DNA of 63,340 nucleotides, counting the filler, from Chrysochromulina tobinii (lineage: Eukaryota): the NCBI GenBank assembly GCA_001275005.1. It is 8 parts of 8 records of this genome, joined end to end, with 100 filler letters (N's around TTAATTAATTAA, not from the genome) between each part and the next. Parts side by side here need not be neighbours in the genome. Positions count along the whole stretch, not along the records: positions 7,056 to 24,602 come from JWZX01000170.1; positions 24,703 to 36,838 come from JWZX01000171.1; positions 36,939 to 39,973 come from JWZX01000172.1; positions 40,074 to 48,326 come from JWZX01000173.1; positions 48,427 to 58,813 come from JWZX01000174.1; positions 58,914 to 61,847 come from JWZX01000181.1; 2 more parts are not named here. One strand, 5' to 3'. The notes under the pieces were generated by a model. It saw only the letters and a list, made by a program, of their open reading frames with translations, was not told the DNA's origin and ran no database searches. Positions 9,952 to 59,432 of this stretch are shown one piece after another. Position 1 is the stretch's first letter; each line of letters starts with the position of its first letter. Made by a program: the position numbers and the translations under genes.

Positions 9952-12949
9952 ATGATCCACACCGCCGCCACGTCGCTCGAGGCGCAGTGGATATCGCCAA
10001 AGCGTGGGAAGAAGCTCAGCAGCAGCCTCGAGCCAGGCGCGTCTCTCCGTGAAGCCTACGAGTTGCAGAGGCGCTTTGCCAGCGGCGGCGCTCGACTAAC
10101 GCCCTTTCCCGCTCCTAGGCCACGTCTAGATGCGACCGCATTTCTCGAAGCGCGGCGACGTACGTGGCTTGAGTCGAGGCAGGCCGCAGCTGCACTCTCT
10201 GCTTCGAATCCATCTCGACGACGAGGCGCGTCACCACGAGATGCGGAGGAGGAAGTGTGCCTCGCCGATCTGTGCGCAGACCCCCAATATGATGCGGCGA
10301 TCCTCGAGTCGATCTTTGGGCAAGAGGATGTGGATCGCAATCCCCATGCCGGCATGAGGCAATGGCGCAAGGCATCCCTCGCCATCATCGGATCCAGCCG
10401 CCTGAGACGTCTTGCGGATGCCGATCCGTTGGCCCTGCGGCGAGCGTCCTCGCGTCCAGCCTCGCATCAACATGTGAGCGGTGAGCTTAAGGAGGTGCGC
10501 GCTGATCCAAAGGAGACGCCCAAGCCGCCACCGGTCGAGCCACCGGCAGCGAAGCCGACCAAGAAAGGCTCGAGCACGCTCGGCAAGATCGACCTCGACG
10601 AAGGGCCCGACGCGCCGCCGATCCAGCAACAGATCGCGGCGGCGCTTCGCCGGAATGCGGGCAAGGTGCTCGACCTTTTCCGCGAGTGGGATGCCAACGG
10701 CGACGGCGAGGTGAGCAAGAAGGAGTTTCGGAAGGCGATGCCTGCCATCGGGCTCGATGTGTCGGTCCAGGAGGTCGATGCCCTCTTTGACAGCTGGGAC
10801 AGGGACGGAGGCGGCGCACTCAACTTGAAGGAGCTCAGCAAAGTTCTGAAGAGCCCCCCACCGCCGCTCGCCACAGCGCTGCCCAAGAGCTCAAGCTTGC
10901 CCTCTCTGAGTAAGCTGCCTGCGAGCTCGGGCCTGCCCCGGCTCGGCCAAACAACCAGCCGGGTGCGCATGAGGCTCGCCAGCGAGCTGCGCAACGAGCT
11001 GGACAAGGCGTTGCCGATGAAGAAGGCTGCCCCTCAGATGAACGCCACCGATCTGCGCGAGATGCTTGCAGGGTCGCTCGGCAGCCTCGTCGACGGGTTT
11101 CGTCAGTTCGACACCAACGGCGACGGCAAGGTTGACCTCCAAGAGTTTATCAAAGGCGTGCAGAGCATGGTCGCTTCTAGGGGAGCCAACTGCAGCCCGT
11201 GGTACATCGAGGCCATCTTTGACGATCTCGGTACGATCTCGGCGAGAGCGAAGCACTGTGATCTACCCCTCTATACCCCTCTATGCCGTTCTCCCTGCCT
11301 GCCTGCCTCAGTCCCTCCCTTCCTCCGTAACCGTCTCTCCCTCCCTACTCCCTCCCTCCCTCACTCCCTCCCTCCCTCCCACCTCACGCTCGATTGGAAT
11401 GGCCGCACACAGACTACGACGGCAACGGTTTCCTCTCTTACGACGAGCTACGCTCCACCAAGGTCGCCCATGACGTTATGTAAGCGGGCCACCCTGATGG
11501 TTCAGCCGCGCATGCCTCCGCCGCCAAAGGGCCTCGAGTCGCACGGACGCCAGGTGCTCTAGCACTCTCCTCAAGCGCATATTCGATCACCTCTGATGAC
11601 CTCTGTAGACCTCTGGTGACCTCTGATGACCTCTGTAGACCTCTGATGACCTCTGATGACCTCTGATGACCTCTGATGACCTCTGATGACCTCTGATGAC
11701 CTCTGATGACCTCAGGATGACCTCTGATGACCTCTGATGACCTCTGATGACCACTGATGACCTCTGATGACCACTGATGACCTCTGATGACCTCTGATGA
11801 CCTTATGTTGACCTCAGGATGACCTCTGGCATTGCCTTGCATGCAGGTGCTCGAGCTCCTGAATCAGTTCGAGGAGATTGAGAATGCGAAGGTGCTTGGC
11901 AACGTCGCTGCGGCCGCTGCGGCCGACTCAGCCATCGGGCGGCGCAATCGTGCAGAGGCATTCGATATGATCATACGCCAGTTCTTTGCGAGCGAGTCGA
12001 CACAGGCGGTCCTGCAGCTTCAAGAGTGGGTCCAACAGATACGGGAGCAACGCACGCGAGCCAAGGACGCAAGGATGCGGGAAGCGGACTCGGTGCTCAT
12101 CGCGTCGCTCGACACGGACGGGTACGAGTGTGCGGCTCAGCCGACTGCGCCACCCCCTTCCCTCCCACACCATGGTGACGAACTTACCCCTGCGCTCACT
12201 ATGCGGTGTTCTGAGGGCGCGTGCTGTTTGGTGATTCATGTAGGGACGGCACGATTAGCATCAACGAGTTCGTAGAGCTTTGGAAGACGACCGGCCTGTC
12301 GAAGCCAGTGCTGCGCCAGCACTTTCGCCGAAGAGACCTCGGTAACGTGGGACAGGCGACAGCTCAGCCAGCCCCCAGGCTTGGATGCAAGTGCTCACCA
12401 CGGCGCCCTCTCTTCCTAACTCTCTTCCCCACAGGTAACGTGGGACAGCTCAGCCAGCCCCAGATGCTCGAGGTACTGCGCGAGCTCAGGGCGGAGGTGA
12501 AGCAGCAGAAGGCACGCGAGAAGGCACAGGCGGAACTTGCCCTCGCGGGCGGCCTTACGCTTCCAGCAAGGCGTGCGGACTTGCCTGATGCCGAGCTGCC
12601 TGCGGACTTGCCCTCCGCCAGTCCGCAGAAGAGTCCGCAGAAGGCTGTTGCCGCAACAAGCACGCCGCCGCCTGCTCGGAGCTTCGGAGCTTGCATGCAA
12701 GTGCTCACCCCGGCGCCCTCTCTTCCTAACTCTGCTCTGAGCTTCGGAGCTCACTTGACATTGGAGGACCACGGGCACTCGGCTCGAGTGGGCGCTCCAT
12801 TGGGCGCTCCGTTGGAGCAGCCCCCGCGCGAGGGCGAGCTCATGCTGAAGAAGTACCAGGAAGAGAAGGTGGCTCAAAGGAGGCCGCAAAGGCCTTCGCG
12901 AGGTACTTTCTCGATCAATGAAGCTCTACGAGATCGCCAGGCGCCGTGA
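9952..12949 (+). CDS. Multi-EF-hand calcium-binding protein (introns 11231-11412, 11463-11846, 12122-12243, 12342-12434)
   Basis: EF loops DANGDGEVSKKEF, DRDGGGALNLKEL and DTNGDGKVDLQEF, plus spliced DYDGNGFLSYDEL and DTDGDGTISINEF. Confidence 0.85.
11586..11828. repeat. Intronic 10-bp minisatellite (ACCTCTGATG)n, ~24 units
   Basis: Read directly. Confidence 0.95.
12342..12434 (+). mobile_element. Introner-like intron with shared core tgcaagtgctcaccacggcgccct...ccccacag
   Basis: Core recurs at 12692-12731 and 59119-59165; the intron 5' end duplicates the start of the downstream exon. Confidence 0.7.
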
Positions 12950-13819
12950 TGGGCGCAGATGAGGAAGAGTATAGAGGAAGAGTAGAGGAAGAGAGGCGCC
13001 GACGGCATCTGAATCGATGTCGGTACTTGCAGCGGCACGTGCCTAAGCCGTGGCATCAGATTGCATACGAGATCAGATTGCATCAGATTGCTTGGGATTG
13101 CATGCCCAAGCCGTTGCATCAGATTGCATGCGAGGACGAGGCATTTCACGCCCACCGGCGTGCAGCCATCACAATTGTGTACCGCTTCATGTGCGTCAAC
13201 GCGTGGAGCACAGCTGGCGCGACACGCGGCGGCACCAGTCCGCGGAAGGAGCGCCGGTTCGGTTGCAAGCGTGCTGGTCCCCTCGAATACATCGGTCTGG
13301 AGCGGCACGGTGTCTGAGGTGTGAGGTCCGGCACATGTGCTTGCCTGTGACTAAATCAAACGTTCAGTGTCACGCGACGCGGACGGTATGTGGCCGCTTA
13401 AGTATCTCAAAATACAAAAAGGACTCGGTGAGCGTACGATGGTCGCGATGCGCTTGTATGTGCTCTCGTTTCCGCGATGTCGGCTTCTCACATGCGGTGT
13501 GGTATGGTTGGGGCACACCGATTGTAACTCAGCATGCTCGACGTTGTGACATTGTGTGTTGTGGCGCCGTGGGGACCCGCGCGGGCCCTCGACCACCGCC
13601 TCTGCCGTCCGGCCGGCAGAGCGCCCCCGACCACCCTCCGCCGCCTCCGCCGCCTCCGCTGCCTCCACCGCCTCCGCCGCCCAAGCCACCCCAGCCGCCT
13701 CCGCCGCCTCTGGCGCCCCCGCCGCCCCCGACGACCATGCCTCTGCCGCCTCAGCAATCGCCGTCTCTGACAGCGGGATTTTGAAGCCGCACTGCTCACG
13801 TGATCTGAGCCGTCCCCAC

Positions 13820-14848
13820 TCAAAGATCTTGGAGCTTCTCACGACTGATCCTTCGCTTGAACAAGCTTCGACTGGTGCCGAGACTAGCCATGGCTGACAG
13901 GGCATCTCCAGATAAACGTCGCACCCGGAAGGACATGCCGCTGCCAGGGCTGTCGCTCTCTTCAAGCCGACGTCCATCGGGATCAAGGGACTGGAGTTTG
14001 AGATGGCTCTCTTTGACGAAAGGCTCGAGCCACTCGGGCTTGACCCCACACATGATGGCATATTCACGCAGCTCAGGTACATTGTGGAGTAGGTGTCGCA
14101 GCGTGTTTTCACCGAGCTCCTGCGCCGCGGGGACGGCGTGGTGTGCATGCATCGCGTCCGCGACCGCCTTGAGCGCCCCAGCATTGGCCGCACTCTGCCG
14201 CCGATGGATGGCCGCTTCATCTTCTCCGTAGCAGCAGTTCTGGAGGGCGATGCAGCCCATTTCCTGTACCTCCGCGTTGCGGCCCATCCGGATCATCGCA
14301 TTCACGACCGCGACAAGAGCGCCCGACGACACGGACTTGTTGCGGTGCTCATTTGCAACGCGCGAGTTCAGATTGACAATGGCGGCAAGGCCCTGCAGTT
14401 GCACGTTCACATGAAAAGGCAGCGCCTTCATCGCCTCCACGACTGCCGCGGAAGCCCCTAGCTTCTGACACTCGTTCAGCTGTGCGGTCTCGCGGCAGAG
14501 GACTCGCACACGCATACAGCAGATCTCCATGGTCGTGTGATTGAGAGGCTTGGCCTGCACTGCCTCTTTCAGCGTCTTCACAACATCTGCCGGCACCATG
14601 TTGTCTATTTCAGCAACGGGCACTTCTGCTTCGCCGCCGTCGATGGCCCCCCCCTCTGTCACCATACTTAAGCCGGCAGACTTTCTCAGTATCTCCTCCT
14701 CCTTGATCTGTATGCGCCTCCTGATCTCGTCTTCGAGCTCCTTGTCTTCGGGCTGCTGCTCACGCAGCTCGCCGAGCGCCTGCGTACTCAAAGTCGAGTA
14801 TTTTGAGCTGATCTCCGAGAGGCTAACCGCGCTCAGCTCCGCACCCAT
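13820..14848 (-). CDS. Armadillo/HEAT-like repeat protein
   Basis: Repeats GASAAVVEAMKALP..VQLQGLAAIVNL, GALVAVVNAMIRMG..VQEMGCIALQN and GALKAVADAMHAH; possible MGAELS myristoylation-type start. Confidence 0.7.
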   Translation of the reverse strand: MGAELSAVSLSEISSKYSTLSTQALGELREQQPEDKELEDEIRRRIQIKEEEILRKSAGLSMVTEGGAIDGGEAEVPVAEIDNMVPADVVKTLKEAVQAKPLNHTTMEICCMRVRVLCRETAQLNECQKLGASAAVVEAMKALPFHVNVQLQGLAAIVNLNSRVANEHRNKSVSSGALVAVVNAMIRMGRNAEVQEMGCIALQNCCYGEDEAAIHRRQSAANAGALKAVADAMHAHHAVPAAQELGENTLRHLLHNVPELREYAIMCGVKPEWLEPFVKESHLKLQSLDPDGRRLEESDSPGSGMSFRVRRLSGDALSAMASLGTSRSLFKRRISREKLQDL

Positions 14849-15116
14849 ACAATCTCGTGTTGGTTGCAGAGTGCGAGCGAGCGAAGGGTTGCCCAAAAGG
14901 CAAACTCCGACGACAAACTCATTATGTTTCGTCAGTCTGCAATCTGGATGTCCAGGTCTTAAATAACTGCGAACAAACAAGGACTTGTTTGCGGACGCCT
15001 CGAGGAGAGGCGGGTGGCACTATCGGCACGCGTAAGTTGGTTGGTGCAAAACATCATCCAAAAACGGAATTCGGCATACGCGAAAACCCGCGCTCCGTGT
15101 CAACCTGTCAGAGTCG

Positions 15117-16016
15117 ATGTCACGCGATGAGGCCTATGTCGATCTCGATGCCTTGTGCGAGATGCTGAGTATGCATGCCTGTTGCTCACGCCTCTCTGCC
15201 TGCGATGTACTCACACTTGTCTCTTCCTCCTCCGTAGAATGCAGCTGGCCCGATGGCGAGTCGGGATCATCCATCTCCACCGATGCGTCGCCACTCGCCT
15301 CGGACGCAACAGAAGAGATGCCACTTGACCATCCGGAGCTGACACCGGTTGTCGTCGAATTCACGACACACGAGCCGCAAGTGTCGATCCCCATTCTTGC
15401 CTCTACCGTTGTACAACCTGGTCGCGTGCTCGCTCCAGTCAAGCAAGATCCGAGGGTGCTCGTGCCGCCCGAAACTCGCCTCGTGCTTGCGGTTCACAAG
15501 TGCGAGGAGGAAGAGGAGGAAGAGGAGGAGGAGGAGGAGGAGCACGAAGACGATCAGACTGGAGAGACCGGCTCATGGCTGCTCAAGCAGGGCGCACAAA
15601 AAGGAGGGCCCTCGAAGCCGCAGTTCAAGGATGAGGCGATGCGTGTGCTCTACGAGTGCGAGCAGATGCTGCTGCAGGGGAAGGGTGGCGCCCTCTCGAA
15701 TCGCGATCGAGTCCTGAAGGATATCGCACAGCTTAAGCGGCGCTACAGCCGAAGCACAAGTGCGAGCGCACCTTCACGCTCCTCGATCATGCGTCAGCGT
15801 CGCTACTCGCTCGGCATCGACGCTCGCCGTGTGCTCAAGACGTGGGTTGAGGACCACCTCGAAGATCCATACCCCAGCGTCCAAGACAAGCAGCAGCTGG
15901 GCGCCGCCACGCAACTCACCATGAAGCAGATCAACGACTGGTTCACAAACTACCGCAAGCGTCACTGGGCAGACGAGATGGACTCGATGATGGCCGTGCA
16001 CGATGACGAGCAGTGA
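15117..16016 (+). CDS. TALE-class (KN) homeodomain transcription factor
   Basis: RRVLKTWVEDHLEDPYPSVQDKQQL...QINDWFTNYRKRHW with PYP loop; poly-E tract. Confidence 0.92.
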   Translation: MSRDEAYVDLDALCEMLSMHACCSRLSACDVLTLVSSSSVECSWPDGESGSSISTDASPLASDATEEMPLDHPELTPVVVEFTTHEPQVSIPILASTVVQPGRVLAPVKQDPRVLVPPETRLVLAVHKCEEEEEEEEEEEEEHEDDQTGETGSWLLKQGAQKGGPSKPQFKDEAMRVLYECEQMLLQGKGGALSNRDRVLKDIAQLKRRYSRSTSASAPSRSSIMRQRRYSLGIDARRVLKTWVEDHLEDPYPSVQDKQQLGAATQLTMKQINDWFTNYRKRHWADEMDSMMAVHDDEQ

Positions 16017-16564
16017 AAGAGGTGGTGCTGATGACATCACCGAAAATCCAAAGGAATGCGAAGGAACGCGACTGAAGTCAGACGGCGAACGCGGATGCAA
16101 CATGCAGCAAAACAAGTGTGTTAGACGGCCGTCCGCATGGGCACGCCGCGCATGGGCCGTTGCGAAAGCGTGGTCCGTGGTTTGAGAAATACGCCACGCA
16201 GGCTGGGCCACGGGCATGGCCACGGGGCGACGGGGGAAGCGGACACTGCCGACTCAGGCGTCTTGGTGGCTCGTGGCACTCGACTGCGGCGTGCGAAGGC
16301 TGGCGGCTGATCGAAACAGAAACCCAGAAACCATGACCCAGTCCCAGAACAGATCTACACGACACAGATCTGTGCTCGATGCTATAACAAAGAATGCGCC
16401 ATGGAATGCGCACAGGCACACAGCACGGTGTGACGTAGTCGACATGGATGGATATCAATGCAGTTGTATGAGTTGCGGCGTGCGTGAGTTCTCCCAGCGG
16501 TGTGTGTAGCGTGTGCGTGTAGATTTCTCAGCCGCGTAGTAATCTGTTGACGGAGCACTTGAGC

Positions 16565-18367: not shown

Positions 18368-18618
18368 GTGGACTGCCGAGAATTTCTCGGCAACTTCTAT
18401 GAAATTGACCGAGAGGCAACACCCCAACGCGTGATTCCACAAATCACGCTCGCCAGAGCGAATCGCTGCAATTTGTTGGGTGACTCGTGACCTCAACTCG
18501 GCTGCTTTAGAAATTGCATCTTTTCTCTAAAAAGGATCCGATCCACAACTTGCCATCTTTTGGATCCACTCCGCGCGACCGAGACGTGCTTGGGAGGGCT
18601 CGACGGATTTTCGGGTGC

Positions 18619-20577: not shown

Positions 20578-20578
20578 C

Positions 20579-20660
20579 AAGAAGGTTTTGGGGATGCCGA
20601 TCGGATGACGAAACTGACTAAGAAGGTTTTGGGGATGCCGATCGGATGACGAAACTGACT
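20579..20660. repeat. Perfect 41-bp tandem duplication just after the stop codon
   Basis: aagaaggttttggggatgccgatcggatgacgaaactgact x2. Confidence 0.95.
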
Positions 20661-27716: not shown

Positions 27717-27768
<52 letters not shown>

Positions 27769-48426: not shown

Positions 48427-48503
48427 ACAGCGCCTCGACAGTCGACTCGACAGCGCCTCGACAGCGCCTCGACGGAGCCTCGACAGCTCGACAGCTCGAC
48501 AGC
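48427..48503. repeat. Short ctcgacag tandem repeats at contig start
   Basis: Read directly. Confidence 0.8.
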
Positions 48504-48817
48504 CAGGGCTCAAGGCGACCGACTACTTGACTGTGGAGTCGTATGCCGTTGTCTCCGCGTCTTCACTGAAACGGTATTCTTCCTTATTGATGGTAAGAAC
48601 TGAAGTGCTTAGAAAACTCCACGCGACCACCTGAGTCACTGCTCCTCAAACTGTGGGGTCTCTGCTCTATGTTCATCCATCCGACCCACAGCCACCACCG
48701 AAGAATCCGTACTCGTACTGCATGCGGCTTCCTGTACATAGCCTCCATGCACAGTCCATGGCGTAACCGCCACACCGGCGGGCGTCGATGCACAAGCACC
48801 TACTAAGAGAATCCGCA

Positions 48818-49363
48818 TCACATCTGAAAGGTGCCATTTTGATAGAAATGGCTGCTGTTGTTGCGCATCCTGCTGTGCACGAAGCCGTTTGTGGCCTCGA
48901 TCTGATTGACGTGCATGTTGTCGGTGAAGGAAAGGCCGCGATGGCGAGGCTGCAGCTTTTCCATCGGCAGCTCATTTGCGTTCAGATAGTTCCCGGCGCT
49001 GCTCGGCAGAACGCCATCACCACCGAAAAACCCGGCACTGTCGTCGACGGCTCCCCAGTCATCGGGAACCCCAAGATGCCGCGGCGTCACACCTCCGATC
49101 CCCGACGCTTTGATCGTCTTGATCTGCACGTCGACTATCCAGGCGAGCAGCTCGTCTCGCAGCGCTGGCACTGGTGGGAGAGCATGTCCGCCAATCTTTT
49201 GTTGGAGATCGAGGGCCTTGTTCTTCAATGAGGTCGTCTTTGACTGCTCGAGGTTCTCAAAGGTATAGATCGGAATCCTTGTGGCAAGGCCTGTCGGTAG
49301 CTGCCCCGCCTTGAAGACACACTCTGTCGGCACTCCGTTGATCATCGTGTTGGGCTGCGGCAT
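48818..49363 (-). CDS. Hypothetical protein (~181 aa)
   Basis: ATG ORF with coding-like composition (MPQPNTMINGVPTECVFKAGQL...). Confidence 0.65.
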   Translation of the reverse strand: MPQPNTMINGVPTECVFKAGQLPTGLATRIPIYTFENLEQSKTTSLKNKALDLQQKIGGHALPPVPALRDELLAWIVDVQIKTIKASGIGGVTPRHLGVPDDWGAVDDSAGFFGGDGVLPSSAGNYLNANELPMEKLQPRHRGLSFTDNMHVNQIEATNGFVHSRMRNNSSHFYQNGTFQM

Positions 49364-49445
49364 CGGGGTCGTCGGATTTTGGGAAGATGTCGAGAGGGAC
49401 GCGCTCGGCTTCAACAAAGATGGGTCTTTTCAGTTGTCTTTTCGT

Positions 49446-49477
49446 ACCGGTAAAAAGACACCGGGGGGAGCCGGGAC
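49446..49477 (-). repeat. 32-bp dispersed motif, copy 2
   Basis: Reverse complement identical to 31899-31930. Confidence 0.9.
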
Positions 49478-49779
49478 ACACACGAGACACACGGAACACG
49501 CGGACGCACAAAGGCACACAGACCACACAGACGAACCTCAGAACCATCGAAACCCACCAACAACACACACCCCGCACGTCAGCGCGACGACCGAAGCCGT
49601 ACCGGTACATGTAAAAATTCAGACGAACGTTAGCCCCCTTCGAGCGCCAGGTTATCTGGACCTGAGCTCAACTCCCCAACCGGGAGTGTGCCCGGTCTGT
49701 GAACGGAAATATGGGCGTCTCCTGGCTCGCACCCGCGGTGGCTCGTGAGCGACGACTTCTTTCAGGACGTACATTCTGA

Positions 49780-52740
49780 ATGACCTGCTGCGCCTCCTCA
49801 CCGTTTGCTTCGTCGCACCTATTGTCTACCGCACCCATTCCGAAGACGGTGGACCTCGCTGATCCAAACGCGCTCGAGCGCGTGGCCCGAGCGCGTGCAT
49901 ACCGCGGCGAGCTCATCCTCTTCTCCTTTGACTTTTGCGGCATTTCCGAGGCGCTCTCGCTCATCATCTCCCTGCGGCGTGCGAGCTTTGAGCACTTTCT
50001 GCCGTTGACCGATGGCATTGAAACATGTGATGCGATGCGAACTGCCGCCAGGCTGCGAGACCTAGACGATCGCACGATGCCGTGCTATTTCAGCTCGTGG
50101 CCTCGAGACCACGCTGGCTGGAAGATGTGGGGTCATGGCCCGGCGTGCGTGAGTGCGGCGCGGCCGTCTCATTCCTGCGTCCTCGAGCAGCTGTGGACGT
50201 CTCGGTACGCCGTCGCAGGCCGGCTGCTTGCGCTTGGCCAGATCAACTTGCTACACATGGACACCGACTCGGCCATCCTCGCGGACCCATACGCAGTGCT
50301 CAAGACGGCGCCACTAGCGGCGCACAATTTGATCTTCGTACCCGAATTGCCGATCAACGGCGGTATGTGGTATGCGCAGAACACCACCGACGGCGGACCC
50401 TCTCAGTGGATCATCGCCGAAGTCGCGCGACGCACGCTACAAGTCATCTCGCTCACGCCGCAGCGACGGATGCTGCCCCCTTTCGACCAGGCAATGCTGG
50501 GCGACGTGCTGTACACGGCCGCGGATCGTGGCACGGTGCATTGGGGCGCTGCATGCGAGCACATGGTCGTTCGCAAGTCCGCACTTTGCACGGCCAACAC
50601 GAGTCGCAATCCGCGAATGATGCGATGGGACGTGCGCCATCGCGGTGAGCCTCCAATTCTCGCTGCCCTCGTGCGCCCCCGCCCAGCATGCACGTGCTCA
50701 CCACGACGCTCCGCCCGCTTCCCCACAGTTGCGCCTCCAACGGCCGCGGCCAGGGCGGCGCTCAAGGCTCCGGCGCCGAAGTCCGAGTACGGTCGCGCGA
50801 GGCTCCCGACCCGGAACAAAGGGATAGTTCCCACCGCTCTCTTCCGTTCCGTCGAGCTGCGCGTGCCCGGGACCACGCATGTCGAGCGAGCAGCGACCAC
50901 GTTGCCGTGGCTCTTCCCCAACGGCTGGAAAGCGCAGCAGCTCGGCCTCTTTGCGCGGCGGCCGGCGGCGGCGGCGGTTGTGCACCTGCTTGGCGTGCGC
51001 TGCCGCTGGTGCGAGAGCAGCGAAGATGTCGACCATGGTTCCAAGTGGGAGTGGCAGCACCTCGCCGGCTTTTGGCCGGCGCGGGCGTATACGCTCGCAC
51101 CGCTACTCGCCTCCACCTCGGGCGCCTCGGCCACGGCCACGGCTGCGGCTGCTGCTGCGGCTGCGGGCGGCACGGCGCCCAGGCCGCCCGGCACAGCGCC
51201 AACGGACGGTGGTGGAGTGCCCGGTACGGCGCCATCGGCTGGGCAGGCTGCGCTCTCGCAATCGATTGAGTCGTCGCCACCCGTAGAGTTTGGCACGATT
51301 GGCTCTCCATTGAGTGAGCGCGTGGAGCGTCACTGCCGCAAGCGCGGCCGCGCGCGCCTGCTGTACGCCGACCGGCGTGTGCTGAGCGTCAGTCGCAAGG
51401 CCTTGGCCTACCTGCATGCCGAGGGTGCTGACGACGACGGCGCCGCCGCACGCACCCTCATTCGTCAGTTGATCGTCCTGGCGAGCGTGAGCGGGCGCAT
51501 GGCGGTGCTCCCGTCCTTCAACTGCTCCGCCCCGTGGATTCAGAAGGTGCCTCGTGAGGACGGCAGCCTTGTTCTCGCCGACTTGCGCGTGGTCATCGTC
51601 GACGCGGCCGAGGGCCGCCCCATACACGAGCAGCGGTGCGCGCCATGCAACGTACAGTTTGCATGCCGCCAGCACGTCCTCTCGGAGGCTCAGTGGCGTG
51701 CGGCAAAGGAAGCGACGGTTACAGCGACGGTGCCCCAGCCCCCCTCCGATGCCGCTCACGACGGCGCCTCGGCAGGTGTTCTCGACTCGCCGACGAGGCT
51801 GCCTCTGCCCTTGGTCGCGCCCGAACCGGGCGCCGTACCGGGCGCTCATCGAGTGGTCCATCTGCTGCAGCTCTGGGCCCTGTTGGCCACGCACCTCGGC
51901 ACCCAGCGCGAGTTGCAGCTGGAGGAGCTCGGCGACGTCCGCGGGGACGCTTGCTCTCTCGATGGGGAGCTTCTGAAGCAGTCGGCTTCTCTGGCGGCGA
52001 CGGTCGTGCGACTACACTGCGGGGTGGCGGAGGCGGCCCTAGAGCTGCGCAGCCTATGCCCTCGCACGGACGCGGAGACGAGATACGCCCTCGGCCGTTG
52101 GGGGCAGGGAATCGAGGAGGCGAGGTGCCCCCAGTACACCACCAACGAGGGGCAGCTCCTAGAACGTCGGGATGTCCGTGCGGCTCCGCACCCGATGACC
52201 CATTCGGCGGCGGCGTGGCGACGCTCACTGTTGGCGGCGCGGCTGGGAGTCCGCTGTGGGGATATGCTTTGCTCCGACCGCTCGTGCGACGTGCTCGCCG
52301 TCGAAGAGTGCTCGCATAATCTCCGACGCGAGCTCGCGGGGATCGACGCCAACAGCAGCGCGGCGATGCAGCGCGTGCGATCGCACCTTCGGCACGCGTC
52401 GCCTGCGGTGGTGCAGGAGATGGTGCGGGAGCGTTGCACCGTGTGGATCCATCGTCTCCCCAAAGATTCGAGACCCCGGTGCGACGCACTCACAGGGCAG
52501 TGCCTTGCGCCGCCGAGAGCTTTCCCGGGAAGGGCAACCTGGCCCTCGGCCATTTGCCTCGAGGAGCCACCGGCGCGCATGTGCTTTGCGGGTCGGCCGG
52601 TAGACCTCAAAGCCGAGAACGCAGAGCGCTTTTGTTCAAAGTGCTACAGCCGTGCCGACGTCGCGCACGGCGCACGATCGTCCAAATCGAGGCACGATAC
52701 GTCATTAGGGCTACCGGTACGCATTCGTGTGTCCGTGTGA
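49780..52740 (+). CDS. Nucleotide-diphospho-sugar transferase (GT77-like) with long extension
   Basis: LERVARARAYRGELILF, LWTSRYAVAGRLLALGQINLLHMDTD (DxD), INGGMWY, FDQAMLGD, VLASVSGRMAVLPSFNC. Confidence 0.8.
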   Translation: MTCCASSPFASSHLLSTAPIPKTVDLADPNALERVARARAYRGELILFSFDFCGISEALSLIISLRRASFEHFLPLTDGIETCDAMRTAARLRDLDDRTMPCYFSSWPRDHAGWKMWGHGPACVSAARPSHSCVLEQLWTSRYAVAGRLLALGQINLLHMDTDSAILADPYAVLKTAPLAAHNLIFVPELPINGGMWYAQNTTDGGPSQWIIAEVARRTLQVISLTPQRRMLPPFDQAMLGDVLYTAADRGTVHWGAACEHMVVRKSALCTANTSRNPRMMRWDVRHRGEPPILAALVRPRPACTCSPRRSARFPTVAPPTAAARAALKAPAPKSEYGRARLPTRNKGIVPTALFRSVELRVPGTTHVERAATTLPWLFPNGWKAQQLGLFARRPAAAAVVHLLGVRCRWCESSEDVDHGSKWEWQHLAGFWPARAYTLAPLLASTSGASATATAAAAAAAAGGTAPRPPGTAPTDGGGVPGTAPSAGQAALSQSIESSPPVEFGTIGSPLSERVERHCRKRGRARLLYADRRVLSVSRKALAYLHAEGADDDGAAARTLIRQLIVLASVSGRMAVLPSFNCSAPWIQKVPREDGSLVLADLRVVIVDAAEGRPIHEQRCAPCNVQFACRQHVLSEAQWRAAKEATVTATVPQPPSDAAHDGASAGVLDSPTRLPLPLVAPEPGAVPGAHRVVHLLQLWALLATHLGTQRELQLEELGDVRGDACSLDGELLKQSASLAATVVRLHCGVAEAALELRSLCPRTDAETRYALGRWGQGIEEARCPQYTTNEGQLLERRDVRAAPHPMTHSAAAWRRSLLAARLGVRCGDMLCSDRSCDVLAVEECSHNLRRELAGIDANSSAAMQRVRSHLRHASPAVVQEMVRERCTVWIHRLPKDSRPRCDALTGQCLAPPRAFPGRATWPSAICLEEPPARMCFAGRPVDLKAENAERFCSKCYSRADVAHGARSSKSRHDTSLGLPVRIRVSV

Positions 52741-52772
52741 GTCCCGGCTCCCCCCGGTGTCTTTTTACCGGT
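52741..52772 (+). repeat. 32-bp dispersed motif, copy 3
   Basis: Identical to 31899-31930. Confidence 0.9.
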
Positions 52773-52814
52773 ACGCAATCTCCGTACAATTGAGGAAATG
52801 CAAAGTGTCTGCTG

Positions 52815-54155
52815 ATGAAACTCCGCGGTGCTGTGCATTTCTCCGGCACACCCTCAATCTTTGGGTGGCAACGCGGCGGCGCGCAGGTCGGCTTCGACCC
52901 AGGGGGTGGAGGGATGATAAGACAAGAGGCCAGAAAGCAAGTGGCAAAGCAGGTTGTCAATGTCGTGAATCCACGCCTCGTGATGTATACCCACTCTTGT
53001 TCCCTTGCTGCGACCATACTGGTGTTGAACTACGTCATCATCATCATCCTAGCTTTCGTGCTGAAGGATGACTGCTCCGAGACGTCAGTTGTTGATCGCT
53101 CCTTGCCTGTGACGTTCGGAGACTTCGTGACGTACGAAGAGTTCATCAATATAACGCTGAGCCGTGAGGGTGTCGTCTCATCAGGCACGACCACCACCAC
53201 CACCACAGTCAGTGGATGCGTTAAGAGGAACAGCGCCGTACTTGTGGCACCGTATATGTCCGATATTTGCGCGAACACGTGCAACTACGCCTCGGATGGT
53301 GACTGCGACGATGGTGGACCGGGCTCCGAGTTCCAATTCGGGAGCTCGAACATGTTAAGTGCGGCATGCGCCCTCGGCAGCGACTGCGTAGACTGCGGCC
53401 CTCGAGTGCGGCCCACGACCTATGCAGGCACAGGAATCACAACTGATGTGCCGTGCTGGAATCAGTATGTGCCATGCAGTAACCGAACAGGCACACCAAC
53501 ATCACCTGCAATCAGACCATCAGGCTCGGCAACCACAGAATTCCAGGCTGTTGCAGGATTCACGATAATTCCTGGCGGACTTCCTTGTGGTTGGTACAAG
53601 TCAGACGACGCTCGCAATGTGGGAGGGGATAGCTATCGCGCAGAGATGGGATACACAAAGGCCGATCGCTTTCCCTGGTGCTCACCAGCGGACGAGGACT
53701 TTGCTATTGAACGCTACCGCAGCATGAGCAACCTTTCGGCGATGGATGGGACAAGGGTGAATCTTGCAATCAGTTGTGGCTTGAACAAGATGAATCGATA
53801 TCCTGTCACACCAGCAGGTGTCTTCTCGCCGAACCTTTCTCCGTCGCCAGGTGACCTCAGTGCTGGCACATTGACCTCATTCACCACACATTGGAATCTC
53901 ACCGTGATTACGACGACAAAGGTGTGCCCAAAGTTTTCCGCGACGTTTTCAAGTGCGTTCGCGTACACCGCGCAAATCGAGATCGTCATTACCCTTGTGC
54001 TGATCTACTTGTTCAAGAAGATTGCTCTGATTGCGGATAATAAGGATGTGATTGACATTGGAACCGACGGGATCATTACGAAGGAGAAAGCCTTGGAGCT
54101 CACGAAAGGGAACTCGCAGACAGCGGATGGTGGGATCCGTGCGCAGCGCGCTTGA
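52815..54155 (+). CDS. Two-TM membrane protein with Cys-rich CDDGGPG module in the extracellular loop
   Basis: TM at ILVLNYVIIIILAFVL and IEIVITLVLIYLF; CANTCNYASDGDCDDGGPGSEF..CALGSDCVDCGPR; start at 52815 or 52914. Confidence 0.8.
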   Translation: MKLRGAVHFSGTPSIFGWQRGGAQVGFDPGGGGMIRQEARKQVAKQVVNVVNPRLVMYTHSCSLAATILVLNYVIIIILAFVLKDDCSETSVVDRSLPVTFGDFVTYEEFINITLSREGVVSSGTTTTTTTVSGCVKRNSAVLVAPYMSDICANTCNYASDGDCDDGGPGSEFQFGSSNMLSAACALGSDCVDCGPRVRPTTYAGTGITTDVPCWNQYVPCSNRTGTPTSPAIRPSGSATTEFQAVAGFTIIPGGLPCGWYKSDDARNVGGDSYRAEMGYTKADRFPWCSPADEDFAIERYRSMSNLSAMDGTRVNLAISCGLNKMNRYPVTPAGVFSPNLSPSPGDLSAGTLTSFTTHWNLTVITTTKVCPKFSATFSSAFAYTAQIEIVITLVLIYLFKKIALIADNKDVIDIGTDGIITKEKALELTKGNSQTADGGIRAQRA

Positions 54156-54172
54156 CCGCTGGGGCAACATGC

Positions 54173-54377
54173 GTTCAAAATGAGCTTGGGCATCACGGGG
54201 GCGCCATCGGGGTCCGTCACCACTGGCGCCGCCGACGGCGCGAGATCCGAGCTGAGCGCTGGCGTGGGCATTGTCCCTCGACATCGTCCCGTCCAAGATC
54301 GGATGTCGACTGCGCCGTTCATGTCGATTGGCGGTGGCGTCGAGGGGCGCGTGCGCTCGCGGTGTGCCCAGCACGGC
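54173..54377 (-). pseudogene. Diverged duplicate of the kinesin-TPR 3' coding segment (55520-55705)
   Basis: TRPSTPPPIDMNGAVDI..APSAAPVVTDPDGAPVMPKL vs TRPSTPLPNDMDGAVDI..APSAAPVVTGPDGAPVMPKL. Confidence 0.85.
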
Positions 54378-55333
54378 CTCGCGCTTCTCGGCCTCATCAC
54401 TCCGTACCGGTAGCACGTCTTCTCTCGTCTGAGGTGCCACAGCGGGTGCTCGGGTCGCTGTGGAGGGCTCGACACCTCGACTGTGCTTCGTGTGTGGAGT
54501 GTGCCGTCGCCGCGCCCGGTCGTCGTCGGTTTGTGGCTAGTTTTCGGGCAGTTTTAGTTTCAGTGAGGACATGTCTGAGCGGGAGCGGATGGACCGCCGC
54601 GGACCTGACCGCCGACCGACCCCGCAAGAGCCCGACTGGGGCGGTCTGATGCGCGCCCCGGGGGCGGCAGAGCGCGGGTCCATCGGACGACATTTCATGG
54701 GTACCGGTACGTTATTACTCGGTCGTACAGACGCGAGACGGTACGTATCTTTCGATCGATAACAATTAACATCGCGTGCGGAGCGCGGTCGAACGGGCCC
54801 CTCACGACGCGCATGCCGAATAAATGCGAATTTCGTAATGAGTCAAATAAAATGAGTATTATAGAAGTGTGTGCTTTCTCAATCTGCGTGTACACTGCTT
54901 ACCCACCGCCCCGCGCACCGCGCGCTCCCGGCCGGCACCGGACCTCGCTCGTTCTCTCTCGCTAGTCTCTGCGCTCTTGATACAGGACAACGCCGGTTCA
55001 ACGCGCACAACAACAAGCTACAAGGCCCACAAGCCTGTCTCTGACAGTAGACGTCGAGAACGACTCTCGGACACACAACGGCCTAGGAGCAGACATTGCA
55101 GACGAGAACCAGAAAGGGGGCACAGATGCTCGACGTCCAAACCGGCTCGAGCTTCAACTCACGGCTCGCCCTGTGAACGCGCTTTGGCCCTGCCCCGCTG
55201 CCGCCGCGATTCCGGCCCCTTCCACAGCACAAAATAAGTGAACATCCAGTCTCTCCTGTAGCGGCCCGCCTGAGGTCCTCGCCGTGCCTAGACGCCGCCA
55301 CTCATCACGCGCCGCTACCCGTCGCGGGTCGCC

Positions 55334-58300
55334 TCAATGGTCGCCGTCGAGGCCGCTATAGTCCATTTTGGCCACCTGCTGGCGCAGCATCGAGCGCGCT
55401 GAGCCCTTGCCGCCCGCCCGCGAGTCGGCCATCGCCCGTGCCGCATCCGACGAGGCCTTCGAGTACGTAGAGCGCGGCGTGGCAGCGGGGCCCTCGTCGA
55501 CGCTCTTCTTGATGTTCATGTTCAGCTTGAGCTTTGGCATCACGGGGGCGCCATCGGGGCCCGTCACCACTGGCGCCGCCGACGGCGCGGGCTCCGAGCT
55601 GAGCGCTGTCATGGGCACCGGCCCGTCCGAGATGTCGACGGCGCCGTCCATGTCGTTTGGCAAAGGCGTCGAGGGTCGCGTGCCCCGCGGTGTGCCCAGC
55701 TCGGCAGCACGATCGACGCGCGCCTGCAGCACGGCATCGCGCTTCTCGGACGCTGCCTGCAGCGCCCCCTCCATTTGCTCCTCGGTGCGCGCTTTGCCCT
55801 TCTGCTTGAGGCGCTCGGCGAGGTCCTTTGGAGGCTCCCTCGGCGTCTCGTTGACCGCCACCTCGATCACCTGCGTCGCCGACAGATTGCGTGCGACCGT
55901 TAGCGTCTTCGGGTCGTCCGGTCCGAGCGCCGCGGCCATGATGTCGTACGCGCGCTTGAAGAGCGCGATTGCCTCGTCGCGCCGCCCTTGCACGCGGTAG
56001 ACGATGCCCAGGTTGGACAGATCCATCGCCACCTCGGGATGATCATCGCCAAGCGCGGCCTGGTCAATGGCGAGCGCGCGGAGGTAGAGCGGCACCGCCT
56101 CCGAATGCTGGTTCTGATCGCAGAAGGCGTTGCCCAGATTGACGAGATCCTTGGCAACCTCCGGGTGATCTGGCCCGAGGGTCTTCTCATAGATCGCGAG
56201 CGCCGTCATGTAGAGAGGCACTGCGTGCGGCGCCTTGCCCTGCGTCCGGTAGAGCAGCGCCAGGCGCCCTAGGTCAGAGGCGACCTCGTGCAGCGTGGCC
56301 TCCATGTCCTCGCGCTCGCGCTCGAGCCGCTGAGCCTCGGCTTCGCTGTCTTTCTCGGCCTGGGACACCTCCTTTGCCTGCCATCGCGTCGGGTCGTCGG
56401 TGAGAGGTCTTGTCGCTCGTCATCCATCGCAATCAATCCTCATTCAGGGGAAATCCATGCTCATCAAGGGGCAATGCATGCTCATCCATCGCAATCAATC
56501 CTCATTCAGGGGGAATCCATGCTCATCAAGGGGCAATGCATGCTCATCCATCGCAATCAATCCTCATTCAGGGGGAATCCATGCTCATCAAGGGGCAATC
56601 CATGCTCCTCAGGGGCCATGTCTCACCTTGTCTTCGAGCGACTGGACGTCGGCCCACGCGCGCTCGACGGCGCCCTGATACGCCTCGAGAGTCGCCGCCT
56701 GCTCCTCCTGCGATTGAGTCGAACGGTCTGTCCCTTCAGGCGAGTCCGCTTTCATGGCGTCGCGCGCTGCCGCCTCGAGCGCCCTGCCATCGAGCGCGCC
56801 GCTCGCAGTGCTCAGTCGCGCCGCCCCAAAGCTATCCTTGATGAAGTCGTCCACCATCACAGCCTCGTCGGCGGGCATGCGCTTGCTGCTGCTGCTGCTG
56901 CTGCTGCTGTCTGCCTGCTTGGCGGCCTTGGGCAACGTCGGCGCCGCCTCCGGGAGCGCCACTCCCTTGGAGGTGGCCAGCGCGCGCAGTCGCTCGAGCT
57001 CGATTGACGAAGCGGCCTGCTGCTTGCGCATCGCCTTCATCTTGCTCTCGTGCTCTTTGCGCTTTCGGGCGAGCTTGCCAGAGAGGGCGGCCTGCGCCTC
57101 CGCCTGCGCCTGCATGAGCTCGTCGAGCTCGAGCTTCGCTGCCTCCACCTTGGCCTGTACTGACCCTAGTGCCACGCGCAGAGACTGCTGAGACTCGTAC
57201 GTCGGACGGAGCCGCGCCCACGCGCCAAGCTCGGCGCGCACGCGCCCGAGCTGCGACTCGTAATACTTCCAAAACAGCTCATCCTCGAGAGCGGTGAAGT
57301 CGACTGACGCGTTCACCTTGGCCTGCACCTTGACCGACATGGCCTGCTGGCCGAATTGCAGCGAGTTCAGTGTCTCAAACGAGTCGGAGGCCGTCGGAGC
57401 GACGCACACGATCAGCACCGTGTTGGCGCGCCCACCAAAGGCGCCCGACAGCAGCCGCGTGAGCTTCGTCTCGCGAAAGGGCGGTCGGCCGCCCTTGGGG
57501 CCCGCGGCGAGAGCCTGCACGCACCGGCCGAGCGTCGTGAGCGAATTGTTGATCGCGATCGCCTCGTCGAACGCCTGCCCCGTCACTTCGGACTTTTTGA
57601 CGCGCTCGGAGCCGGCGAGGTCGACGAGGTGCAGCTTGCCGCGCAGGATGCGTGAGCCCGCGCGGGTGGTGACGTCGAGCAAGAGCACCGAATGCGAGCG
57701 CGACGATGCATCGTTCATCGCTGTCGCGCTCGTCACGCGGTTGCGGTTGGCTGCCTCGATCACGCCCACCGCCTGCTGCACCGACGTGAGCGGCGTCGAC
57801 TGCGCGCCGGTGAGGACCACGCCCTCCTTGGGATCTTCTCGTAGGTCGACCTGATGAGGGAGGCAATCACATGCCGTCAGAGGCCTTCCGACGCCATCAG
57901 GGGAGGCAATCACATCCCCTCGTCGTTGGGATCCTCTCGCGGACCCACCTCGTTCTTAGGCTCGAGCAGGTCGTACAGGCCTTCGAGATAGATCTGGACG
58001 TACGAGAGCCGCACTTCGCGCCCCTCAGCCGCGTCATCCGTCAGGATCTGCGAGAGCGCTCGCCACACGACACCCTCCTTGCCCGCCGCCACGTTGCCGA
58101 GCGTGTGCGTCTTGCCAGCGCCCGTCTGGCCGTAGCACATGACGCAGCCGTTGATGCCCTCGAGCACGCCGGCGATCACCTCCGTCTCCGTGCACGCTGC
58201 GCGGTACACATCCTCCTGCTGCGCGTCGGGAGGCAGCACACCGTCGAAGACGAACTGGCGCGGCGACGCCGAGCGCTCGCCCTTGCGCGATCCGGCGTCG

Positions 58301-58813
58301 TTCCCGTCCTCACCGGCGCCCTCCTTGTTCTCGAGGAGCCAGAGCTTCGGGCTCTGCACGTGGATCGCCGAGCTGCCCGCGCTGCTGCTGTCCTCCTTCG
58401 CCTCATTCTTGCGCACCGTCGGCCGCACGCGCACGTAGACGCGCACGCGTGTCGCGCCGCCACCCGCGGCGGCGCTCGAGCCCGACGTCGATTGCCGCTT
58501 GAGCTTCGTGGGCGTACCCTCCTTGCTGCCGGGCTTGCTGCCACCCTCCTTGGCAGGCGGCGTGTCAGCGCCCGCCTCACCTTTGTTTTGCTGCCGCTCC
58601 GCGAGCGCCTCGTCATCCACCATGCGGTTGGCGGCACCGGCCGACGAGGGCGGCAGCGGGGGACGTGCGCCGGGCGGCAGCGGCGGCGCCTTGGCTCCGG
58701 GGCGCCGCGCGGTGGGACCGGCAGCGGGTGCTTTCGCCGGCTTCTGGGCGTCGGGCGTGGACGGCCGTGGCGAGCGAGGCGACGCCGGCGCCGCCGGCGC
58801 CGCCGCTGCAGGG
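55334..58813 (-). CDS. Kinesin motor + coiled coil + kinesin-light-chain-like TPR repeats; introns 57851-57948 and 56378-56626; 5'-partial
   Basis: VRVYVRVRP, GQTGAGKT, NDASSRSH, DLAGSER, PFRETKLTRLL; TPRs LGPDHPEVAKDLVNLG and LGDDHPEVAMDLSNLG; GT-AG splicing keeps the frame (KNE|VDLRED, EDK|AKEVSQ). Confidence 0.9.
56420..56610. repeat. Intronic 62-bp tandem repeat, ~3 copies
   Basis: tcatccatcgcaatcaatcctcattcagggggaatccatgctcatcaaggggcaatgcatgc units at 56420, 56482 and 56544. Confidence 0.92.
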
Positions 58814-58913
58814 NNNNNNNNNNNNNNNNNNNNNNNNNNNNNNNNNNNNNNNNNNNNTTAATTAATTAANNNNNNNNNNNNNNNNNNNNNNNNNNNNNNN
58901 NNNNNNNNNNNNN

Positions 58914-59432
58914 GCGCCATGCCACGCTGCTTCCAGAGCTTCTTCGCCGTGGGCAAGGCGTACCGCGCCCCCATGTTCATCGCGACGAGCGTGGAGCAGG
59001 ACGTCTCGATCCACACCTTCCTGATGCGGCTGCCGCCCGCGACCGCCTCGCAGTCGCCGCCTTTTCAGGAGCCGGTGCGCTGGCGCTTCCACCTCGATGG
59101 CGCTTCCACCTCGATCGAGCATGCAAGTGCTCACCACGGCGCCCTAACCTTGCCTCTCCCCACAGGTGCTCTGGCGCTTCCACCTCGATGGCTCGCTGCC
59201 CCCGAACCGCCGCTGCGTGCACGTCAACTTCATCGACCGCACCGATGGCACCGTGCACGGCGAGGACGAGTTCCTCTTCGCGCCGTACTCAACCTTCACC
59301 GTGCGCGCCTTCGAGTGGAGTTCGCAGCCAAGCGTCAACGCGTACACCTTGCGGCCGCACTATATCGACGTCAACGTCGCCAGCGACAACCTGCGGCCGC
59401 CGCTCGACCTGCCGCTCGCGCCGTGGTGCTGA
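58914..59432 (+). CDS. Mono-ADP-ribosyltransferase (R-S-E class) C-terminal domain, 5'-partial; intron 59075-59165
   Basis: YRAPMFIATS (STS-like), spliced EP|VLWRFHLD, GEDEFLFAPYSTFTV (ExE), ends DLPLAPWC*. Confidence 0.8.

What the first reader, a model, noticed from the sequence alone, without database searches (positions are those of the whole stretch)
12342..59165. Introner-like family: a shared ~45-nt core inserted with long exon duplications creates new introns
Seen: the core (tg)catgcaagtgctcaccacggcgccct...ccccacag, which supplies the pyrimidine tract and acceptor, ends introns in two unrelated genes on different contigs: 12342-12434 (EF-hand) and 59075-59165 (ART). In both, the intron's first ~27-30 nt copy the start of the downstream exon (gtaacgtgggacag..ctcagccagcccc; gtgcgctggcgcttccacctcgatggc vs gtgctctggcgcttccacctcgatggc). 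The duplicated G|GT becomes the donor and splicing restores the protein exactly. Known: introner elements that co-opt target-site duplications as splice sites exist in Micromonas and Aureococcus, with short TSDs. Inference: here the duplications are long and variable and no TIRs are visible, suggesting a different route to intron gain (TPRT-like, or templated break repair).
Basis: partly seen in the sequence, partly recalled or inferred. Interest (0 to 1): 0.8.

Follow-up and report, generated by a model that had tools for sequence, protein, structure and literature searches.

The report
Half-intron cassettes that spawn new introns
In a freshwater haptophyte alga, a large family of introns is built from a 10-45 base copy of the next exon's start joined to a shared intron-end cassette; the two tested here are missing exactly from RNA, and the family likely spreads when DNA break repair copies the end of an existing intron into a new site.

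Summary
Both introns are as described, and RNA-library contigs skip them exactly. The shared part is a 25-nt core plus a terminal CCCCACAG, not one 45-nt block. A capped metagenome scan gave 204 distinct copies. 88 of 131 acceptor-bearing copies have a 9-44 nt exon duplication, 83 of the 88 start at GT/GC, and 0 of 84 have terminal inverted repeats. One allele pair shows an empty exon against an 81-nt insertion whose junction, core and tail match an intron 524 bp away, with 2- and 4-nt microhomologies. A mirror class carries the donor and duplicates the upstream exon. A second, unrelated intron end uses the same layout, and plain 20-42 nt tandem duplications are common. Best reading (0.5): existing intron ends are copied by microhomology-primed template switching at staggered breaks, so introns seed introns without a transposase. 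Main rival (0.27): a non-LTR reverse transcriptase. The enzyme and the template type (DNA or RNA) are untested. Published introner screens require similarity at both intron ends and would miss this family.

The parts
12342..12434 (+). Family intron 1 (93 nt, GT..AG) in an EF-hand gene; in frame and stop-free if retained
   Evidence: skipped exactly in one RNA-library contig; EF-hand Pfam hits in the upstream exon 9877-11478
12342..12375 (+). Duplication copy 1 (gives the donor), with a 7-nt internal stutter
12383..12407 (+). 25-nt core with branch-site-like TGCTCAC
   Evidence: branch role inferred from motif and spacing
12408..12434 (+). Pyrimidine tail ending CCCCACAG (acceptor)
12435..12461 (+). 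Duplication copy 2 (start of the downstream exon)
12672..12731 (+). Acceptor-less copy: 20-nt duplication copy 1, core at 12693-12717, cut tail; 60 nt, in frame; 43 of 45 nt alike with intron 1 310 bp upstream (likely its local donor)
   Evidence: (family D19); retained in contigs of RNA runs X12 and X14
12732..12751 (+). Duplication copy 2 of the acceptor-less copy
50645..50728 (+). Older decayed copy (core 50686-50710, CCCCACAG end, 84 nt); candidate intron, in frame if retained; splicing not tested
51754..51767 (+). Possible half-core copy (1 mismatch in 14 nt); may be chance (0.4 expected per window)
59075..59165 (+). Family intron 2 (91 nt, GT..AG) in a haptophyte gene of unassigned family
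   Evidence: skipped exactly in RNA runs X12 and X15, unspliced in X16; same insertion with another tail in L087
59075..59101 (+). Duplication copy 1, followed by a re-copied 17-nt stretch
59119..59143 (+). 25-nt core
59144..59165 (+). Pyrimidine tail ending CCCCACAG
59166..59192 (+). Duplication copy 2 (start of the downstream exon)
59404..59467 (.). Plain 32-nt tandem duplication without insert; one of six of 20-42 nt in the window (others at 1919, 2089, 20576, 23478, 45134)
   Evidence: 0 in each of 3 shuffles

Best explanation
These introns are an exon duplication with a copied intron-end cassette at its joint, and they likely arise when host break repair copies the 3' end of an existing intron into a staggered break. 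Shown: the layout X-cassette-X, with X of 9-44 nt starting at G|GT(A/G); exact removal in RNA-library contigs at both window sites; an empty allele; and a matching intron nearby in some cases. Inferred steps: (1) two nicks 25-45 nt apart on opposite strands leave complementary 3' overhangs; (2) the antisense 3' tip anneals by 2-6 nt to the AG|GT junction of an existing family intron, nearby or unlinked, as DNA or pre-mRNA; (3) a polymerase of the Pol theta type copies back through the pyrimidine tract and branch site and leaves near GCATGC, often at a GC/GCA microhomology, sometimes slipping or repeating the round; (4) joining and fill-in duplicate X, whose first copy supplies the donor; (5) each product is a new template, so the cassette multiplies with no transposase. 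Priming from the sense tip would give the mirror class (donor carried, acceptor taken from the duplicated upstream exon); joining without a switch would give plain duplications.
For: Natural experiment: L008/L028 have an uninterrupted reading frame where L057 (871 matches, 14 mismatches) has an 81-nt insertion with a perfect 34-nt duplication; its 6-nt junction, core and 18-nt tail match the family intron 524 bp downstream, with GGTG and GC shared at the two switch points. Window 12693 shares 43 of 45 nt with intron 1. Tails within one edit: 4 of 50 same-locus pairs vs 53 of 9125 cross-locus pairs, p=2e-4. Microhomology of 2 nt or more at the 5' joint in 9 of 19 gap-free copies vs 13.6% background, p=4e-4. 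Joint 'filler' shares words of 8 nt or more with the local flank in direct orientation in 12 of 35 (null 7%), inverted in 1 of 35. 83 of 88 duplications start GT/GC, more than purging of exonic insertions alone predicts even if only 5% of targets were neutral. Mirror class restores a clean frame in L086 and L082. A second intron end (GATTGCC/GATGACC repeats ending CTCATCAG or similar) shows the same layout mid-exon in 9 of 21 cases read by eye; 0 hits at 889 shuffled sites. Six plain 20-42 nt duplications in the window. In mouse cells, paired nicks with 3' overhangs give tandem duplications, and the Pol theta route spans nearly the whole overhang with junction microhomology (PMC8355091, passages).
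Against: Most neighbours are not traceable copies of each other: the first test found no difference in tail distance (25 vs 5699 pairs, p=0.30), and shared core variants (11 of 30 pairs vs 14.6%, permutation p=0.004) rest on one locus for 6 of 11; per locus it is 6 of 14 against about 3.7 expected (hand count). Two unrelated genes (L012, L103) share 51 nt including the junction, so unlinked copying occurs. The sharp pile-up of 5' ends at GCATGC (that count includes the scan's own anchors) looks like an element end and is only partly explained. Acceptor-bearing neighbours are on the same strand 38 to 0, which fits an RNA template as well. TPRT leaves the same final geometry. The L057/L008 pair could be a precise loss by recombination between the repeats rather than a gain. 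43 of 131 acceptor-bearing copies have no significant anchored duplication. No enzyme was identified and no genome was available.
Confidence: 0.5

Rival explanations
1. Target-primed reverse transcription: a non-LTR retrotransposon's endonuclease and reverse transcriptase act on pre-mRNA or intron RNA. The nicked antisense strand pairs with the RNA's AG|GU junction, the cDNA is 5'-truncated near GCATGC, and second-strand nicking 25-45 nt away gives the duplication.
For: Variable duplication length, precise 3' end and ragged 5' end with microhomology or extra letters; same-strand bias 38 to 0 and about 8-fold clustering (54 events in about 104 kb of flank vs 4 in 62.6 kb of window) fit a template from the same gene's RNA; unlinked identical copies L012/L103. 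About 5% of classified introners are non-LTR derived (PMC12130899 section 6).
Against: No poly(A) or simple-repeat 3' tail; no Rfam family at gathering score in 4 long-form loci; the mirror class has its precise end on the 5' side; a second cassette and insert-free duplications share the size range; no RT or endonuclease domain among 32 window ORFs scanned (a 63-kb window cannot show absence).
Confidence: 0.27
2. The spliceosome reverse-splices an excised lariat's 3' end into displaced DNA at an exon-like site; reverse transcription stops just past the branch region, and end joining with fill-in makes the duplication.
For: Precise CAG 3' end, sense-only acceptor-bearing copies, core centred on a branch-like CTCAC at a median 27 nt from the AG; post-splicing catalysis by the intron-lariat spliceosome is proposed as a route to intron transposition (PMC10996645, passages).
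Against: [quoted passage not shown] The target's +3 to +5 donor-like bias is already in the exon copy (47 of 84 GT[AG]NG vs 0.8% background), which reverse exon ligation should not need (my inference). Acceptor-less, core-only, mirror and antisense copies (L033/L079, L051) are not explained.
Confidence: 0.08
3. The introns are old, and the likeness comes from gene conversion between intron ends plus independent exon duplications; empty alleles are losses.
For: Insertions are shared between alleles 1-4% apart and tails differ between alleles; long direct repeats allow precise loss.
Against: The intron's 5' part, including the donor itself, is the duplicated exon: 39 of 88 aligned stretches are perfect and mean identity is 96%, so the intron cannot predate the duplication.
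Confidence: 0.05
4. A MITE-type DNA-transposon introner as in Micromonas or Aureococcus.
For: High copy number, co-option of a splice site from the duplication, precise removal.
Against: 0 of 84 with terminal inverted repeats; duplication lengths spread evenly from 9 to 44 nt; no fixed 5' end; tandem core-target arrays in 29 of 172 events.
Confidence: 0.03

Closest known systems
Introners (Micromonas, Aureococcus; marine Chrysochromulina families in Gozashti et al. 2022, PMC9860276; 2025, PMC12130899)
   Same: Repeated short sequences that create introns across a genome, carry one splice site and take the other from a target duplication. The paper's Chrysochromulina example has no TIRs.
   Different: That example has a 4-bp duplication and carries the 5' site. 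Here the duplication is 9-44 nt and makes up a third to a half of the intron, so introns are alike only at one end. Both screens require similarity at both intron boundaries. I could not see their family sequences, so the donor-carrying long form may overlap one of their families.
Intron gain by double-strand-break repair (Daphnia neointrons, PMC4202315)
   Same: Direct repeat of the adjacent exon at the far end of the new intron, read as repair of a staggered break; internal stutters.
   Different: Daphnia repeats are 4-12 bp and the inserted sequence mostly has no known source. Here repeats are longer and the insert is a recurring splice-signal cassette, sometimes with a traceable donor intron.
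Intron gain by tandem genomic duplication at AGGT (review PMC3443670)
   Same: A duplicated exon stretch supplies a splice site and the coding sequence is unchanged.
   Different: There the duplication gives both sites. Here only the donor comes from it (A at -2 in 43 of 88); branch site, pyrimidine tract and AG are imported.
Tandem duplications from paired nicks repaired by end joining (PMC8355091)
   Same: Duplication of the overhang, junction microhomology in the Pol theta route, similar size range.
   Different: Shown in mammalian cells as a mutational process, with no recurring cassette and no intron creation.
5'-truncated non-LTR/SINE insertions (general features recalled, not from a call)
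   Same: Variable duplication, precise 3' end, ragged 5' end.
   Different: No poly(A) or repeat tail, no small-RNA head found, mirror class present, no partner element seen.

Membership tests
MITE-type introner | Terminal inverted repeats | tested here: not met
   0 of 84 reach 8 of 10 complementary letters, for whole intron or insert; mean score at null level
MITE-type introner | Short target duplication of fixed length | tested here: not met
   9-44 nt, median 25.5, no peak
MITE-type introner | Cognate transposase in the genome | not testable with these tools
   No genome held; none among 32 window ORFs
Introner (broad sense) | Many related copies in unrelated genes | tested here: met
   204 distinct copies in a capped scan pooled over several samples
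Introner (broad sense) | Removed by splicing without changing the protein | tested here: met
   Exact joints at 2 of 2 sites laid; homologues continuous at site 2. Contigs of related strains, so an empty allele cannot be fully excluded
Introner (broad sense) | Similarity over the whole intron, both ends | tested here: not met
   The 5' 27-46 nt are mostly target-specific
Introner (broad sense) | Presence/absence between close relatives | tested here: met
   L057 vs L008/L028; tail-only insertion L079 vs L033; polarity not fixed by an outgroup
Non-LTR/SINE insertion (TPRT) | Variable-length duplication, precise 3' end, truncated 5' end with microhomology | tested here: met
Non-LTR/SINE insertion (TPRT) | 3' poly(A) or simple-repeat tail | tested here: not met
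   91 of 131 tails end CCCACAG
Non-LTR/SINE insertion (TPRT) | tRNA/5S/7SL-derived head | tested here: inconclusive
   No Rfam hit near gathering score in 4 of 132 loci scanned
Non-LTR/SINE insertion (TPRT) | Partner LINE sharing the 3' end | not testable with these tools
   No genome held; contigs behind the loci not searchable
Fungal introner-like elements (reverse-splicing model) | No target duplication; whole intron copied | tested here: not met
   88 of 131 with duplication; only the 3' part is shared; family definition from PMC9860276 passage
Tandem genomic duplication route | Both splice sites come from a duplicated AGGT | tested here: not met
   Acceptor lies in the cassette; target has A at -2 in 43 of 88
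Break-repair intron gain | Direct repeat of the adjacent exon at the intron's far end | tested here: met
Break-repair intron gain | Dependence on an end-joining polymerase | not testable with these tools
   Needs genetics or inhibitors

The most novel reading that the evidence does not exclude
Introns in this alga reproduce as half-introns with no mobile-element enzyme: host break repair, primed by a few bases of likeness to AG|GT junctions, copies an existing intron's branch site and acceptor (or its donor) into the joint of an exon duplication. Every product is a new template with the same priming junction, so splice-signal cassettes are self-amplifying replicators. At least two unrelated cassettes use the route, which may be the main source of new introns in this lineage and is invisible to current introner screens.
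Probability: 0.45. Interest if true: 0.9.

Novelty: new variant of a known kind. Interest (0 to 1): 0.8.

Why it matters
Where the sequence of new introns comes from is a long-standing question; reviews list several routes, each with few caught cases, and recent surveys credit transposons. This family shows mass intron gain with a footprint that joins three of those routes: exon duplication gives the donor, a copied intron end gives branch site and acceptor, and repair-like joints link them. It comes with an empty allele and a candidate donor intron 524 bp away. Because such introns are alike at only one end, published screens filter them out, so the route may be under-counted in other lineages. 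The organism grows in mixed culture and strains differ at these sites, so gain can be watched and the enzyme tested.

Tried and rejected
No whole genome is held and the contigs behind the loci are not searchable, so copy number per genome and an autonomous partner could not be checked. Local copying as the general rule: rejected; the first test was negative (which had dropped the L057 pair as an orthologue of L008 and used stricter filters) and the corrected one shows a minority. Core as a known RNA (tRNA, snRNA, telomerase template): no Rfam support; the telomere-like CCCTAACC at site 2 is absent from the allele L087. Element on the antisense strand as a SINE: no support; acceptor-bearing copies follow their neighbours' strand. 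Assembly or library artefact: rejected, since identical junctions recur in separate samples with allelic differences and decayed copies exist. Inverted (snap-back) origin of the joint filler: not enriched. Post-insertion improvement of the donor: few changes at +1 to +6, the consensus is already in the exon copy. Viral scans: 1 hit for the core, 0 for the long form. Prokaryote scan: 2 hits for a 19-mer, about what chance gives in 596 Gb (my estimate is about 4). The long form is absent from the window. 'ART' label: no Pfam or PDB support. RNA runs X11, X12, X14 did not cover joint 1 and X14 did not cover joint 2; lack of cover is no evidence. One search was a mistyped alignment and the last translation used wrong coordinates; neither is used. 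MFE folds of four copies gave no common structure and had no shuffle control.
Full report
Setting. The window is eight contigs joined by N-linkers, about 63% GC. A kinesin-TPR exon has Prymnesium parvum as its only named relative with a species (53%) and the site-2 exon has an Emiliania huxleyi relative (68%), so the host is a haptophyte. Runs holding the stretch are labelled mixed-culture, freshwater or lake metagenomes. That it is a Chrysochromulina is my recall of similar repeats, not a result. No genome is held.

Observation. Both introns are at the stated places. They share an exact 25-nt word, never seen in 100 shuffles, and the end CCCCACAG; the spacer differs. Each begins with a copy of the next exon plus a short re-copied stretch. 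Two more copies lie at 12693 and 50686. One contig of polyA run X15 skips 12342-12434 exactly (depth 3; 1 of 4 runs). Contigs of X12 and X15 skip 59075-59165 exactly, and X16 holds that intron unspliced. The three share a nearby variant (59062), which suggests the joined form is spliced RNA and not an empty allele, but contigs of related strains cannot prove it. The 60-nt acceptor-less copy at 12672-12731 is retained in X12 and X14 contigs and keeps the frame; DNA in those libraries is not excluded. Six of 35 homologues show EP[VI]LWRF across junction 2 in the printed matches, with EPVLW in further ones; one gene call (P0020) reads through the same intron.

Family anatomy. Allowing 4 mismatches in these loci, L001 and the window gave 228 copies, 204 after merging orthologues. 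These pool several samples and strains. 131 have a pyrimidine tail with enough flank, 63 have no tail, 10 were dropped for short flank. Of the 131, 91 end CCCACAG and 113 are followed by GT or GC. 88 have a duplication anchored at the acceptor (null 0.9%): length 9-44 nt, median 25.5, identity 96%, 39 perfect. Donor-to-core distance is 27-46 nt (10th-90th percentile); introns are 57-148 nt, median 77. The first copy starts GT in 78 and GC in 5 of 88, with G before it in 70. For 84 of them (4 dropped, core more than 55 nt from the donor), the exon copy already reads GT[AG]NG in 47 against 0.8% background. The A of CTCAC lies a median 27 nt from the AG, and GCTCA is among the least changed parts of the core; I infer it is the branch site. 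No TIRs in 84. Of 60 tail-less copies examined, 36 have a duplication (null 6%; several belong to arrays). 29 of 172 events are tandem arrays of core plus target. Tails differ between alleles of one insertion, so part of the tail variety arises afterwards.

Targeting. If insertion ignored sequence and only unspliceable exonic copies were purged, GT/GC starts would be 69% with 5% neutral DNA and 31% with 30%; 83 of 88 is far above either. ORFs of 250 codons or more cover 69% of the window at most. I infer the mechanism itself prefers G|GT. Caveat: assembled metagenome contigs favour genes.

The allele pair. L057 and L008/L028 align over 972 columns with 14 mismatches. L057 has an extra 81 nt: a perfect 34-nt copy starting G|GTGAGT, six letters, core and tail. 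The six letters, core and tail match the family intron 524 bp downstream in its L008 form; in L057 that donor has one private change. Donor and target share GGTG at the 3' switch and GC at the 5' switch. The empty site lies in an open frame. Gain is the simplest reading; precise loss between the repeats is possible. A second pair (L079 vs L033) differs by a 42-nt duplication with only the tail, antisense and just past the stop of a neighbouring frame.

Local against distant donors. Copies cluster: 54 further events in about 104 kb of flank from 118 non-redundant loci, against 4 in the window (6.6 expected; the baseline is small). Acceptor-bearing neighbours are on the same strand 38 to 0; tail-less ones 11 to 5. 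A first test found neighbours' tails no closer than others (p=0.30). With orthologous copies kept in their own loci, 4 of 50 neighbour pairs are within one edit against 53 of 9125 (p=2e-4). Shared core variants are enriched by pair but not clearly by locus. So about one neighbour pair in ten looks like a direct copy. L012 and L103, unrelated genes, share 51 nt, so distant copying happens too.

Mirror class and second cassette. 16 copies have a GATTGCCACTGATG-like stretch before the core; several of them begin with their own GT(A/G)CG donor right after an exonic AG. In L086 and L082 the duplicated stretch is the end of the upstream exon and supplies the acceptor; removal gives a clean frame (not tested in RNA). 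A scan of 765 YAG|G[TC] sites in the loci found 77 core cases and 69 other rows, 0 at 889 shuffled sites; the 37 minus-strand rows are mostly mirror images of plus-strand cases. Of the 32 plus-strand rows I read 21 in context: 9 are mid-exon duplications with a GATTGCC/GATGACC-type intron end, 6 are duplications spanning an existing acceptor, 6 are arrays, local slippage or unclear. The window has six plain 20-42 nt tandem duplications, none in 3 shuffles.

Mechanism. One geometry covers all forms: nicks on opposite strands 25-45 nt apart, with one 3' tip copying a stretch of an existing intron before joining. The antisense tip priming at AG|GT gives the main class, the sense tip gives the mirror class, and no switch gives a plain duplication. 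Microhomology at the 5' joint (9 of 19) and direct-orientation filler (12 of 35) fit a repair polymerase. All enzymatic steps are inferred. TPRT by a non-LTR element leaves the same geometry and explains the strand bias and the sharp 5' end at least as well, but no tail, head or partner was seen, and it fits the mirror class and second cassette less simply.

What is known. Gozashti 2022 (PMC9860276: passages, section 15, and supplementary table rows for 32 of 214 mentions of the genus plus two family rows) lists introners in many marine Chrysochromulina genomes; its example has a 4-bp duplication and carries the 5' site, and the method needs similarity at both boundaries. Gozashti 2025 (PMC12130899: abstract, section 6, passages) uses the same filter and leaves about 72% of families unclassified. 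Li 2014 (PMC4202315, passages) gives 4-12 bp repeats in Daphnia. Yenerall and Zhou (PMC3443670, passages), the review PMC11282704 (passages), Ares 2024 (PMC10996645, passages) and Schimmel 2021 (PMC8355091, passages) give the other routes. Ten searches (listings only for papers not named above) showed no description of this layout. The library lacks most subscription papers, and the published family sequences (GitHub, figure) were not visible, so overlap of the long form with a listed family is open. Long duplications by RTE-type elements are my recall; two searches did not give a passage I read. Earlier scan notes had no match by sequence; two notes on same-gene intron copies are related leads.

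Verdict. Real, high-copy and supported by RNA at both sites; works like an introner but fails the tests for MITE-type, fungal-type and SINE-type membership. New variant of a known kind, with a fair chance of being a transposase-free route. Interest 0.8.

Noticed in passing
L001 (viral contigs) 1-1557: A record filed as viral carries the core and tail next to a 491-aa frame with a P-loop (GAGTGKS) that looks like a phage primase/helicase by my recall, plus haptophyte-type short repeats: a chimera, or phage DNA inside the alga.
   Followed up: partly
window 11585-11828, 56420-56616, 61688-61845; many loci: Introns made of 10-21 nt repeat arrays (GATGACCTCT and kin) whose unit holds a branch-like CTGAT/CTGAC; in L082 such an array grows inside the long form.
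   Followed up: partly
L029 1341-1444, L020 1172-1305, L078, L084, L021 (oriented to the core): The 14-nt half core is itself repeated in tandem arrays (18-nt period in L029) and occurs on both strands.
   Followed up: no
window 11836-11852: A repeat-type intron ends TTGCATGCAG|GTGCTC, one letter from the start of the core; the core may descend from such an intron-exon junction.
   Followed up: no
L033/L079: Antisense core insertion at the end of a frame reading ...KLRLPVAVTFGPSWAEM, which resembles a family A polymerase C-terminus by my recall; the core supplies the stop. A contig of run X15 shows a second core at this site (table 5c).
   Followed up: partly
L027 vs L064: 94-nt presence/absence difference made of a GATTGCC-type intron end plus a duplicated exon stretch: a polymorphism of the second cassette.
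   Followed up: partly
L013/L088 and L008/L057: Another short repeated motif (GCGCCGTACCG[AG]) occurs in unrelated exons with copy-number differences between alleles.
   Followed up: no
L010, L083, L090, L114: A variant acceptor end CCCTAATTAG follows the core in 4 copies.
   Followed up: no
L058 896-946 (oriented): An exon duplication whose repeated GATTACAG makes its own acceptor with no imported cassette: candidate intron from pure slippage.
   Followed up: no
window 54-553: Telomere-type ACCCTA repeat followed by a 181-nt tandem repeat at the start of the first contig.
   Followed up: no
window 58914-59432: The site-2 gene family is conserved in haptophytes without Pfam or PDB match; two longer homologues also carry a SidE PDE-like domain.
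   Followed up: partly
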